Positions 9,001 through 12,000 of a stretch of DNA of 41,681 nucleotides are shown here, piece after piece; position 1 is the stretch's first letter; each line of letters opens with the position of its first letter. The position numbers are program-made. The DNA is from a virus (lineage: Duplodnaviria; Heunggongvirae; Uroviricota; Caudoviricetes). The DNA is taken from IMG/VR virus record IMGVR_UViG_2606217106_000020; one strand, written 5' to 3'.

Positions 9001-12000
9001 TCAGAAGGGCTTATGAACTCATCTTTTTTGTAGGGAACCGCTAATGCTGCATCACGTCTGCGAGGCAGCTTGCTTACTTCCTCGCGCTTTTTCATGATTA
9101 GTTATCCTTTAATAACCTATACAGTTTTGTAGGGGTACATCCTGAGGATATTGTTAAGTTCGTAGCACGCCTTTTCCGCCCATCATCGTATAAACGAAAA
9201 CCAGTAGTAGACGAATTTTCTGCGTCAAAAACTATAGACAGTATAGCGTCCCCAGACTTTTTTTGCCATTCGCATGTGCCGTTAGTTGGTTTCGTCATCT
9301 GTAGACGCCAGTCAAGAACGCCATCACTTATAGCTGAGAGATCGTTTAGTACATCTAGTACTGATTGATATCTTTCATTTGGATCTACATGAATGCATTT
9401 GTTTACTATTGTTATCAATTTTTTATGTATATGGGGAGGATATTCTTTTAATGGATAGCAGCCATTAATTATCGACTCTCTGAGTTGTTCAATCGTGCTA
9501 AATGCAGATCTTTCTCTTTCAAAATTATCATGTCCAACACACATTCTATATATGGTTAATCCTGCCTGATATATGTCATATGTGAAATTATAATCATTTG
9601 TTGATAAAGAAAAATATTCCGGTGGCACATGAAAATGATATCCAAACTCAGGCGCAGCTCTCGATTCCTCATTGACTAACTGAGATAATCCAAAGTCAGA
9701 TAGCATGGCCTCATTTCTGTTTGATATCATGATGTTATTAGGTTTTATATCAAAATGCATAAGACCTTTTGAGTGTATATGATAAAGTCCACTTAAAAAT
9801 TGAATAGAATACCGTATTATCTCCCTGCTTGTAAGATTATTTTTTTTCATTAATTGGTTTAGCGAACCATTATGATAAAATGGCATGGCTATATAGATAT
9901 TGCTCTCACATTGAGCAGCATACTGAACTTGCACAATATTTGGATGTGCATGTTTATAGAGAAGCCTTGCTTCATTAAAGTAGTCGTCGTGGTTAGTGTT
10001 TTCTTTTTTTTCTATTTCTTTAATCACCAAGTCATGAGCTAGGTGTCTGTCATGAGCCAGATATACTTTTGAAAAACAACCCTGTTCTTCTAGATCACGA
10101 ATCCATTCGAATTCTACATCAGCTCTTTTGTATGGAGTTAGCATCCCCTTACCTCCGCAGATAGTGCAGCCAAAACAGCTTCATTTGTTTCAGTTGTAAA
10201 ACCAGAATTATCGATTCCATTTATATTGCGGTGTGACTTCAATATTTCTTTATACTCGATCTCTGTTAGGTTCAATGATGATTTCATGCCAGATTTTCTA
10301 ATAGTGTAATATCTTCTTACATCACTGCTTGAAAATGCTTCTTGAATAACAGCTTCTATATAAAGGCGGTCAATGCTAAGATTATCAGAGTTTGATTCAG
10401 TAACGCGTATGGCAGCTAATTCAACATTATATAAATTAAGAATATCGAGGATGTTATTTCTCACATACTTTAACTTTTCTGGTGTGTCTAAGGTCGAAGG
10501 TATTTTAATAACATCAACACATTTGAGTGCAGACTCATTAGTGCAATATACAACAAAAGATGTAACTTTGGGCGCCGCTCTAACACCTAGTATTCTCATT
10601 TTTTATATCCTATTTTAGAATCAGGCCGCATCTCTGCGACCATCCATCATCCAAACGTCTCTTCACTCATCCGAAGAAGCAGCAATCCGGGTCAGCACGC
10701 ACAAGCTCAAGCGCATCAGTCAGCGAAAGTTCAGTACTGTACTGATGCCATTTCATATCCTTCCGCATCCAATAGATTTTCCATCTATCCAGAGAACGTA
10801 TGTACTTGATTCTTGCTGATGGCAGGATGTTTGTTTCACCTGGATTGCCCTGCCACACGGGGCGCTGTTCGCCGATATCTATCGTTTGGTCATTGATGCT
10901 ATAAACAATATCCAGTTCATTGCGGATATGTTCAGGCGGCCTTATGCTTTCAATGAATTGGTTAACTTCTTTTTTGACCGCTTGATATTCAAGGTCAGTG
11001 AACGCCATCTATCCTCCTCACCCAAACGTCTCTTCAGGCCACTGGTTACCAGCTATGTGACGATGAAGTCACGAACTTTTCAGCCACTCCCTTGCCTCGA
11101 TGTCATCCAGATGGCGAGATTGCTTCAGAATACCAGCTACATACTCCACCTTTGCTACTTGATGATAAGGCAACGTTATTGGCCTATGATCTTGGTTGAT
11201 GCTTGTAAATTGGTATTCTCCGTCTCTGTCATAGCCAAGAACTTTGATCATGTTGTGTCCTTCAACAGTTCTGACAAACACCTCATCCCCCGGGAATACT
11301 TTGGTGTTAGGCTCTATGAGTACATATTCTCCTGATTTTATTCTGGGCCACATGCTGTCTCCTTTCACACGAAGACCAAAGGCATCTGGATCATCGCTAT
11401 AAATTTTGAGCCACCCATCGCGCTCTTCGGTCATCTCGATGGCACCATCAACACCAAGAATTGCCTCACCAACCACGCGCACTAACCCTTTTCTTACCTG
11501 ACCGACAAAAGTTAAAGAATCTGAGCATGATGCAATTGGTGTTACATCATGTACCAAATCAAGCCACCCATTAGGTAACCCAAGTGCGGCTTCAAATTTT
11601 CTTGCTAGTTTATCCCCTATGTTTCGAGTGCTTTTTTCACCGGAGACTTGCGTGAGTTGAGAAGGGCTAACCCCAAGCTTATCGGCAAAGCTTGCATTAG
11701 TGTTACCCGCGATTTTTTTATGCTCATCTAGCAAAAACGCCAGATTTGATTTGCGAATATCTTTGTTTTCCATCTCACAATTTTCCCTCTATTTAGCAAA
11801 TGGATAAATACGCAATATGATAAATTTACATTGCGGTTGATTTATCAAAATGGTAAAGTTATTCTGTGTGATAAACGGAGGCACTAATGAGTAATGAACT
11901 ACTACGCTGGCGAAAAGAGGCTTCTAGTGAGGAATGGAAGCGACTCGCCGCATTAGCGAAAACTTCAGTTGGCTATCTTGACCAGATTGCATATGGATTT

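What the first reader, a model, noticed from the sequence alone, without database searches (positions are those of the whole stretch)
10647..11040. The 113-aa ORF is bracketed by a direct repeat that sits just 5' of two successive ribosome-binding sites
The core CCAAACGTCTCTTCA (plus strand) occurs at about 10651-10665 and 11022-11036, about 370 bp apart, in each case between a stop codon and the next gene's Shine-Dalgarno on the leftward mRNA. This could be a cassette boundary left by modular recombination, or a repeated cis element (RNA processing site or translational regulator binding site) controlling the genes downstream of cI.
Basis: seen in the sequence. Interest (0 to 1): 0.4.

Follow-up and report, generated by a model that had tools for sequence, protein, structure and literature searches.

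The report
Duplicated cI gene-end scars flanking cassette
The two repeats are leftover copies of the last few codons of a lambda-type repressor gene, marking where a one-gene candidate anti-phage cassette was spliced in behind the repressor; this is an ordinary but unusually clean example of how lambdoid phages swap modules, not a regulatory signal.

Summary
In detail: CCAAACGTCTCTTCA occurs exactly twice, 371 bp apart (19 nt with one mismatch), bracketing the 113-aa ORF. On the mRNA strand it reads TGAAGAGACGTTTGG-n-TGA, identical to the last codons plus stop of phage lambda cI (…PEETFG*). Neither copy is coding here. Copy 2 lies in a 16-codon stub of a displaced lambda-type cI, just after the resident 933W-type cI stop. 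Copy 1 plus the adjacent hairpin is a 'cI end + cI terminator' block heading the ORF153–stk module. In public contigs the motif is the true end of intact cI genes (68) or a relic (44), followed by about 40 different cargo genes. Filled sites behind other repressor alleles (L007, L047, L262) and empty sites (L116, L261) exist, delimited by the motif. Homology breakpoints cluster at the two copies and none falls inside the ORF. The RNA-element idea fails: no shared fold, no Rfam hit, the copies differ in many relatives, and copy 1 decays in an older lineage while the hairpin is kept. Best reading: recombination scars of a conserved boundary sequence in the known cI–N accessory-gene hotspot. The kind is known; the instance appears undescribed. 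Low-to-moderate interest.

The parts
11069..11773 (-). cI repressor (234 aa, LexA/S24 type). The C-terminal half is 933W-type; the N-terminal DNA-binding part, operators and cro differ from 933W.
   Evidence: ORF; Peptidase_S24 E=3.8e-16; 98.5% identity to 933W only up to 11522; 55 homology breaks at 11496.
11018..11068 (-). Non-coding 16-codon stub of a displaced lambda-type cI 3' end plus its stop (LHRHIAGNQWPEETFG*). It contains repeat copy 2 (15-mer 11022-11036; 19-mer 11018-11036) and is in frame with the resident cI TGA stop.
   Evidence: Matches lambda cI ...CAGTGGCCTGAAGAGACGTTTGG over 23 nt, then nTGA. The same stub follows 92 of 93 933W-type cI genes. It is absent in L263.
11012..11019 (-). 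Shine-Dalgarno GAGGAGGA of the 113-aa ORF, overlapping the relic stop codon.
   Evidence: Sequence read. The same RBS directly follows the stop of intact cI genes in L007 and L047.
10667..11008 (-). 113-aa DUF3024 gene: the single-gene cargo of the cassette and a candidate defence gene.
   Evidence: Pfam DUF3024 E=1.6e-31; PADLOC PDC-S43 E=6e-42, full length; PHROG 3467, unknown function.
10647..10665 (-). Repeat copy 1: relic of the last 15 nt plus nTGA of a lambda-type cI gene, beginning 1 nt after the DUF3024 stop.
   Evidence: Every DUF3024 gene examined carries it or a decayed version (10/15 in L005), and it is followed by at least five different continuations. It is decayed in the older L005 lineage.
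10651..11021 (-). The 371-bp insertion/deletion unit (equivalently 10666-11036): one repeat copy, the RBS and the DUF3024 gene.
   Evidence: Empty sites L116 and L261 against filled sites L007, L047, L262 and the window. No homology breakpoints inside it.
10624..10641 (-). Hairpin GGUCGCA-GAGA-UGCGGCC: remnant of the intrinsic terminator that normally follows cI. The T-run is replaced here by TGATTCT.
   Evidence: Fold (z about -2.1 to -2.3 for the segments containing it). Not called as a terminator in the window. The same hairpin plus T6-8 follows cI-type ends in many of 91 loci. 17/18 conserved in L005 and stem kept by a compensatory change in L261.
10138..10599 (-). ORF153 ('RuvC-like' in RefSeq and PHROGs), first gene of the ORF153-stk module.
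   Evidence: phrog_3875 E=1.4e-90; no Pfam hit.
9098..10144 (-). stk, a eukaryotic-like protein kinase; the homologue in 933W is an exclusion gene.
   Evidence: Pkinase E=2.2e-46; PD-T4-6 and mad6 hits; 933W annotation; the 933W kinase is co-transcribed with cI and aborts HK97 infection (PMC3564112).
8911..8932 (-). tM, the only canonical intrinsic terminator on the leftward strand; end of the cI operon.
   Evidence: annotated tM in 933W.
1729..3490 (-). Red-type recombination module (Exo/YqaJ, RecT-family annealase, Gam): the plausible enzymes for short-homology exchange.
   Evidence: Pfam YqaJ 4.2e-30, RecT 3.5e-33, Gam 4.8e-65.

Best explanation
Both repeat copies are non-coding relics of the 3' end of a lambda-type cI repressor gene (...P-E-E-T-F-G-stop). 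Among lambdoid phages, this cI end is the sharp left boundary of the variable accessory-gene slot between cI and N. The window stacks two modules that each begin with that boundary sequence: (1) [cI end -> RBS -> DUF3024 gene] and (2) [cI end -> cI terminator hairpin -> ORF153 -> stk]. In addition, the original lambda-type cI was replaced by a 933W-type cI with its own stop codon, which left a 16-codon stub containing copy 2. Shown: what the repeat is; its coding role in relatives; the presence/absence polymorphism of the cassette at the repeat; reassortment of cI alleles and cargo across the motif; and lack of constraint on copy 1. Inferred: the founding event joined the DUF3024 3' end to position -15 of a cI end by illegitimate recombination. 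After that, the cassette and the downstream cargo were reshuffled by short-homology recombination, probably by Red/RecT-type enzymes, using the 15-27 nt of shared cI-end sequence. On this reading the repeat does nothing in gene expression. It is a scar that can also serve as a recombination substrate. The element with a likely RNA-level role is the neighbouring hairpin, a terminator that has lost its T-run and so lets PRM transcripts read into ORF153-stk.
For: Identity: the 15-mer equals the last coding bases of lambda cI, and copy 2 matches lambda over 23 nt plus nTGA. Survey of viral contigs: 119 of 131 motif occurrences end in frame with ...EETFG*. In viral contigs, 68 are the true end of intact 216-259-aa cI ORFs and 44 are short relics. 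44 distinct 20-mers and about 40 different next ORFs, including lambda rexA, follow the stop. Reassortment: 16 upstream classes by 40 downstream classes, and 7 downstream pairs pass the four-gamete test. Cassette polymorphism: L007 and L047 have an intact cI ending in the motif, then DUF3024, the motif again and the continuation. L116 has cI joined directly to the same continuation. L261 has a repressor, a single degenerate relic, the hairpin and ORF153-stk, with no DUF3024. L262 has the cassette behind another repressor and in front of other cargo. L130 and L192 have the cassette in front of a third continuation that also occurs directly behind cI in L069, L107 and L136. Breakpoints: in 258 loci, internal homology ends fall only at 10623-10665 (19), 11006-11064 (78, of which 37 are exactly at the stop after copy 2) and 11496. 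The same pattern appears across 658 E. coli genomes. Copy 1 plus the hairpin is homologous as a block to 'cI end + terminator' in L032, L044 and L102. Other lineages stack 2-3 cI-end relics. The phage encodes Exo/RecT/Gam. The minimal pairing segment for Red-beta is 23-27 bp (PMC3945230). The cI-N interval is a published mosaic hotspot (PMC8585504 citing Degnan 2007).
Against: No experiment shows recombination at this motif. The 15-nt exact identity between the two copies in the window is below the published Red-beta pairing minimum, so exchanges through copy 1 should be rare. Some shared junctions could reflect common descent plus exchange through longer flanking homology, not crossovers inside the motif. 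The direction of events (insertion or deletion) cannot be told from filled and empty sites. The apparent 'island' of identity at the 3' end of divergent cI alleles is partly created by that selection.
Confidence: 0.8

Rival explanations
1. Scars only. Every joint arose by illegitimate recombination followed by selection (the Hendrix model). The motif is never used as homology, and shared junctions reflect common descent plus exchange through long flanking homology such as the cI C-terminal domain and the N region.
For: The DUF3024 3' joint (GGATGAG|TGAAGAG) has no homology upstream of the 15-mer, so at least that event was illegitimate. 15 nt is below the Red-beta minimum. L261 has a different relic edge (CC + motif).
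Against: The same cargo with identical junction sequence lies behind both intact lambda-type cI and the 933W-type stub. These share only about 23-45 nt, so crossovers must have fallen in that short interval repeatedly: 7 four-gamete pairs and 37 breaks at one position.
Confidence: 0.12
2. The repeat is a cis-acting RNA element (RNase processing site, or binding site for a translational regulator or sRNA) that controls the two genes downstream.
For: Both copies are intergenic on the PRM transcript and copy 2 abuts an SD. 92 of 93 933W-type cI genes keep the stub.
Against: There is no common structure: copy 1 pairs with the DUF3024 3' end and copy 2 with itself, with z = +0.07 and +1.0 for copy 2. 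No Rfam hit. In most phages the motif is simply coding sequence. 16 of 93 stubs have changes inside the 15-mer, and many relatives have non-identical copies. Copy 1 is 10/15 in the older L005 lineage against 82% identity for the whole unit. L263 has the same cI without any stub, and L261 has ORF153-stk behind a 3-mismatch relic.
Confidence: 0.04
3. The repeat is a target-site duplication made when a mobile DUF3024 element inserted by transposition, site-specific integration or homing.
For: Formally, filled sites have two copies and empty sites one, as for a target-site duplication.
Against: The 371-bp unit holds only an RBS and one 113-aa ORF. It has no transposase, integrase or nuclease domain and no terminal inverted repeats. 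A 15-19-bp duplication would be atypical. The 'target' is also duplicated in other lineages around unrelated 87-nt segments, which fits repeated recombination better than one mobile element.
Confidence: 0.03
4. Chance repeat with no history or function.
For: None beyond its short length.
Against: 0 of 100 shuffles give two copies. Exact identity to the lambda cI end. Conserved arrangement in 195 complete E. coli genomes.
Confidence: 0.01

Closest known systems
Short conserved boundary ('linker') sequences at module junctions of lambdoid phages (Susskind & Botstein 1978; Clark et al. 2001, as summarised in PMC3029335)
   Same: A short sequence shared by otherwise unrelated neighbours, sitting exactly at a gene boundary, across which flanking modules are reassorted.
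   Different: Here the boundary sequence is not a dedicated intergenic linker. It is the coding 3' end of cI, which persists as a non-coding stub after repressor replacement and becomes duplicated when modules are stacked. I found no description of this particular junction in the papers I could search.
[quoted passage not shown] 2007, cited in PMC8585504); also 434 hex and BTP1 bstA
   Same: Accessory or defence genes placed directly behind cI and transcribed with it in the lysogen. Lambda rexA is one of the roughly 40 cargo types found after the motif.
   Different: The cargo here is DUF3024 (PDC-S43 candidate) + ORF153 + stk. The published description (second-hand; Degnan et al. not readable here) concerns variability of the interval, not duplicated cI-end relics.
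Phage 933W cI-stk operon (Tyler 2004 and Friedman 2011, via PMC3564112; GenBank NC_000924)
   Same: The same locus at 98.5% identity from stk through the cI C-terminal domain, including both repeat copies.
   Different: The window's cI N-terminal domain, operators and cro are of another immunity type. The 933W annotation does not mark the relics or the hairpin.
Integron gene cassettes (analogy only)
   Same: Single promoterless ORFs bounded by a recurring sequence, inserted behind a fixed promoter and present or absent as units.
   Different: No attC structure, no IntI integrase and no evidence of site-specific recombination. The recurring sequence is a gene remnant.

Membership tests
Relic of a lambda-type cI 3' end | Nucleotide identity to the terminal codons plus stop of lambda cI | tested here: met
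   15/15 for both copies; 23 nt plus nTGA for copy 2.
Relic of a lambda-type cI 3' end | The same sequence is the in-frame end of intact cI genes in relatives | tested here: met
   68 intact 216-259-aa ORFs end ...QWPEETFG*.
Relic of a lambda-type cI 3' end | Non-coding in this window | tested here: met
   The resident cI stops at 11069-11071. Copy 1 follows the DUF3024 stop.
Conserved boundary sequence / mosaic junction | Sits at a module boundary with unrelated sequence on one side in different phages | tested here: met
   40-44 downstream classes begin right after the stop. Breakpoints cluster at 11018 and at 10623-10665.
Conserved boundary sequence / mosaic junction | Flanks reassorted across it (all four combinations present) | tested here: met
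   7 four-gamete pairs; filled and empty cassette sites.
Conserved boundary sequence / mosaic junction | Crossovers actually occur within it | not testable with these tools
   Needs marked crosses. Only inferred here from junction identity and the 23-27-bp Red-beta minimum.
Cis-regulatory RNA motif | Conserved secondary structure, covariation or a known family | tested here: not met
   Different, non-significant folds for the two copies; no Rfam hit at E<=1 in the region.
Cis-regulatory RNA motif | Sequence conserved where it is non-coding | tested here: not met
   Copy 1 is 10/15 in L005 against 82% for the unit. There are 3 mismatches in L261, and 16 of 93 stubs vary.
Intrinsic terminator (for the adjacent hairpin 10624-10641) | GC-rich stem-loop | tested here: met
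   7-bp stem with GAGA loop.
Intrinsic terminator (for the adjacent hairpin 10624-10641) | U-tract immediately 3' of the stem | tested here: not met
   TGATTCT in the window and in the 29 loci of its lineage. The T6-8 run is present in most other loci with the same hairpin.
Transposon or IS insertion with target-site duplication | Mobility gene and terminal inverted repeats | tested here: not met
   Only DUF3024 lies within the 371 bp. No inverted repeat at the unit ends.
Moron (Juhala et al. 2000 sense: own promoter + gene + terminator) | Own promoter upstream of the inserted gene | tested here: not met
   No minus-strand promoter-like site between 11008 and 11069, and the site count is at chance level. 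The gene is placed to be read from the cI transcript.
PADLOC PDC-S43 candidate defence gene (for the cargo) | Full-length match to the family profile | tested here: met
   E=6e-42, residues 1-113 against profile 1-115/115. No defence activity has been tested.

The most novel reading that the evidence does not exclude
The cI 3' end is not just a passive scar. It is a maintained docking sequence: lambdoid prophages keep it, even as a non-coding stub behind unrelated repressors, because it lets Red/RecT-type recombinases capture and stack promoterless defence-gene cassettes (such as motif-DUF3024-motif) behind the lysogenic PRM promoter. That would be an integrase-free functional analogue of an integron.
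Probability: 0.15. Interest if true: 0.6.

Novelty: new member of a known kind. Interest (0 to 1): 0.3.

Why it matters
It gives a concrete, base-resolved example bearing on an old argument about how phage mosaics form: homologous exchange at short conserved boundary sequences, or random illegitimate joining. At this locus both seem to have acted, with one illegitimate joint followed by repeated short-homology reshuffling. It also shows that the slot behind cI, which holds rexAB in lambda and stk in 933W, can accumulate candidate defence genes as discrete units. In practice, the cI-end motif and its relics are a handy marker for finding and delimiting accessory or defence cargo in lambdoid and Stx prophages. 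They also warn annotators that the intergenic 'repeats' are gene remnants, not regulatory sites.

Tried and rejected
1. RNA element: folding of both intergenic regions and sub-segments and an Rfam E-value scan gave nothing shared or significant.
2. Terminator at the repeat: the scan finds only tM on the minus strand. The hairpin next to copy 1 lacks a T-run.
3. Exact 45-mer search for the copy1-hairpin junction in the one-genome-per-species collection: 0 hits, so it said nothing about empty sites. The E. coli complete-genome search supplied them instead.
4. Idea that the relic variant CCAGAAGAAACG, which has synonymous-looking changes, was imported from coding cI alleles: rejected, because all 17 occurrences are relics.
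5. 'Island' of nucleotide identity at the 3' end of divergent cI alleles: real in the numbers, but largely forced by having selected loci on the exact 15-mer, so not used as evidence.
6. Programmed readthrough of the cI TGA into the in-frame stub: not pursued. The frame relation is not conserved with other repressor alleles (in L262 the repressor's own stop lies inside the stub in another frame), so in-frame here is probably coincidence.
7. Target-site duplication or a mobile element: no mobility gene and no terminal inverted repeats.
8. Degnan 2007, Plunkett 1999 and Tyler 2004 could not be read. Their content is cited only through papers that quote them.
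Full report
**Observation.** The 15-mer CCAAACGTCTCTTCA occurs exactly twice in the 41.7-kb window, at 10651-10665 and 11022-11036. There are no other copies at up to two mismatches, and none of 100 dinucleotide-preserving shuffles gave two matches. The repeat extends to 19 nt with one mismatch (10647-10665 and 11018-11036, spacing 371). It brackets a 113-aa ORF on the minus strand (10667-11008). On the leftward mRNA the order is:
- cI (11069-11773, Peptidase_S24)
- copy 2
- SD and ORF113 (DUF3024)
- copy 1
- a hairpin
- ORF153
- stk (protein kinase)
- a 54-aa ORF
- a canonical terminator at 8932-8911.

Copy 2 abuts the SD of ORF113. Copy 1 lies about 39 nt upstream of the next SD, with the hairpin in between.

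**Context.** The region is the 933W-type immunity-left operon. The window is 98.5% identical to 933W from 8900 to 11522. That stretch covers stk, both small ORFs, both repeat copies and the C-terminal half of cI. The cI N-terminal part, the operators and cro are of another type. An 801-bp query across the locus hits 658 of 5426 complete E. coli genomes, and 195 of them carry the whole arrangement. In 933W the kinase is reported to be co-transcribed with cI and to abort HK97 infection (PMC3564112).

**What the repeat is.** On the mRNA strand it reads TGAAGAGACGTTTGG-n-TGA. That is exactly the end of the phage lambda cI gene (...CAG TGG CCT GAA GAG ACG TTT GGC TGA, QWPEETFG*). Copy 2 matches lambda over 23 nt and then nTGA. 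Of 131 occurrences, 119 end in frame with ...EETFG*. In viral contigs, 68 are the genuine end of intact 216-259-aa cI ORFs and 44 are short relics of 6-43 codons behind other genes. In this window neither copy is coding. The resident cI has its own TGA at 11069-11071, and copy 2 lies in a 16-codon stub (LHRHIAGNQWPEETFG*) of a displaced lambda-type cI. Copy 1 begins one base after the DUF3024 stop.

**A module boundary.** Immediately after the motif's stop codon the sequence diverges into 44 distinct 20-mers and about 40 different next ORFs, lambda rexA among them. Classifying the flanks gives 16 upstream classes and 40 downstream classes. Seven pairs of downstream classes share at least two upstream classes, so all four combinations exist and the flanks have been reassorted across the motif. 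In a comparison of window 9900-11800 with 258 fetched loci, internal homology ends fall only in the following places, with none in the DUF3024 body:

| Window position | Homology ends | Landmark |
|---|---|---|
| 10623-10665 | 19 | hairpin and copy 1 |
| 11006-11064 | 78 (37 exactly at 11018) | RBS, copy 2 and stub; 11018 is the stop after copy 2 |
| 11496 | 55 | inside cI |
| 10384 | 1 | stray |

The partial hits among E. coli genomes end in the same zones. [quoted passage not shown] 2007, as cited in PMC8585504).

**The cassette.** Natural variants delimit a 371-bp unit made of one repeat copy, the RBS and DUF3024.
- L007 and L047 have an intact lambda-type cI whose true end is copy 2, then DUF3024, then copy 1.
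- L116 has an intact cI joined directly to the continuation that follows copy 1 in L047, L103 and L108.
- L130 and L192 place the cassette before a third continuation, which also occurs directly behind cI in L069, L107 and L136.
- L262 has the cassette behind a different repressor and in front of other cargo.
- L261 (E. coli JNE112863) is the empty site for this window's own continuation. It has another repressor, a single degenerate relic (CCTGATTAGACATTTGGGTGA), the hairpin, the same T-run-less tail, and ORF153-stk, with no DUF3024.
- L263 has the 933W-type cI with no stub at all.

Copy 1 together with the hairpin is homologous as a block to 'cI end + intrinsic terminator' in L032, L044 and L102. 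The same 18-nt hairpin is followed by T6-8 in most of 91 loci. Only the 29 loci of the 933W lineage have TGATTCT in its place. So the window stacks two modules that each start with a cI end. Other lineages stack two or three cI-end relics 87-126 nt apart (L058, L101, L106, L115, L120, L122, L250), so this is a general property of the boundary.

**Is the repeat functional as RNA?** The evidence says no.
- The two copies fall in different local folds that are no better than shuffles (z = +0.07 and +1.0 for copy 2). The only stable element near copy 1 is the hairpin.
- No Rfam family matches.
- Anchoring on the 933W-type cI stop instead of on the motif, 92 of 93 loci have the stub. However, 16 carry substitutions inside the 15-mer, and 15 of those read CCAGAAGAAACGTTTGG. 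In those phages the two copies are only 13/15 identical. That variant occurs only in relics.
- The L005 group carries an older version of the whole unit (82% identity), with DUF3024 frameshifted. There copy 1 has 5 of 15 mismatches, whereas the hairpin is 17/18 identical. L261 keeps the stem through a compensatory change.

Selection therefore acts on the hairpin, not on the repeat.

**Mechanism.** The following is inferred. The joint at the DUF3024 3' end (GGATGAG|TGAAGAG) has no homology beyond the 15-mer, so the founding event was probably an illegitimate joint to position -15 of a cI end, paired with a homologous crossover in cI. After that, identical junctions behind unrelated repressors imply repeated crossovers within the 23-45 nt shared by intact cI ends and the stub. 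That length is at the published minimal pairing segment for Red-beta (23-27 bp, against 31-34 bp for RecA; PMC3945230). The window encodes Exo, a RecT-family annealase and Gam. The 15-nt identity between the two copies inside one genome is below that minimum. That fits the fact that, in the viral contigs, every T-run-less hairpin of the ORF153-stk lineage is preceded by the cassette. This matches the 'short conserved boundary sequences' model (Clark 2001; Susskind and Botstein 1978, as summarised in PMC3029335) combined with one illegitimate event, a mixture also envisaged in PMC2327257.

**Cargo.** ORF113 is DUF3024 (E = 1.6e-31). It is a full-length match to the PADLOC candidate single-gene defence family PDC-S43 (E = 6e-42). 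Stk matches the PD-T4-6 and mad6 kinase defence families. ORF153 is PHROG 3875, 'RuvC-like'. The slot therefore holds defence-type genes, as lambda's holds rexAB. No defence activity of DUF3024 has been tested.

**Verdict.** The repeat is a duplicated remnant of the cI gene end. The kind of feature is known: a conserved boundary sequence in the cI-N hotspot. I did not find this specific anatomy described in the literature I could search: duplicated cI-end relics framing a DUF3024 cassette, with a terminator remnant. Interest is low to moderate. Confidence is about 0.8 in the relic and cassette-boundary reading, and lower, about 0.6, in the specific claim that later exchanges used the motif itself as homology.

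Noticed in passing
window 10624-10641 (minus strand): The hairpin GGUCGCA-GAGA-UGCGGCC is the widespread post-cI intrinsic terminator, but here its T-run is replaced by TGATTCT. It is conserved (17/18 in L005) and kept by a compensatory stem change in L261. It may act as a leaky terminator, an attenuator or an mRNA-stabilising structure that sets ORF153-stk expression relative to cI.
   Followed up: partly
window 11496-11773 and 11774-12120: cI is a hybrid. The C-terminal domain is 98.5% identical to 933W up to about 11496-11522. The N-terminal DNA-binding part, the operators and cro are unrelated to 933W. This is an immunity swap with its breakpoint near the domain linker.
   Followed up: partly
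window 11018-11071 (minus strand): The cI stop codon (TGA followed by C) is in frame with the 16-codon stub, so read-through would add LHRHIAGNQWPEETFG. This is probably coincidental, because the frame relation is not kept with other repressor alleles.
   Followed up: partly
L262 2422-2480 (E. coli 2014C-3061, NZ_CP027548): A different repressor allele reads into the old cI stub in another frame and takes its last residues and its TAA stop from it (...VFWSSHSW*). The relic has been co-opted as coding sequence.
   Followed up: no
L106 3989-4257; also L058, L101, L115, L120, L122, L250: Two or three tandem cI-end relics 87-126 nt apart, followed by the terminator hairpin. Relic stacking is recurrent in other lambdoid lineages.
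   Followed up: partly
L005, L006, L023, L105, L118 (about 400 nt after the motif): A DUF3024 pseudogene with multiple frameshifts, 82% identical to the window's cassette, behind an intact cI in four of the five (L005, L006, L105, L118) and behind the 933W-type stub in L023, and followed by an intact hairpin + T-run terminator. This is an older, decaying copy of the same cassette.
   Followed up: partly
window 10667-11008 and 9098-10144: The DUF3024 protein matches the PADLOC candidate defence family PDC-S43 (E=6e-42), and Stk matches the PD-T4-6 and mad6 defence kinases. Whether DUF3024, ORF153 and Stk act together is unknown.
   Followed up: no
window 12570-13891: The ORF translations show a repeated peptide or DNA motif (QQHQPQQPEADWVNP appears twice in 12570-12788 and again, slightly changed, inside the 360-aa ORF at 12809-13891) and a (QE)n run. 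These may be repeats or iterons near the replication genes.
   Followed up: no
window 10400-11200: 100% identical over 801 bp to the chromosome of E. coli strain 23CRST047 (NZ_AP045820.1, 5085121-5085921). The window probably comes from a prophage of that kind.
   Followed up: no
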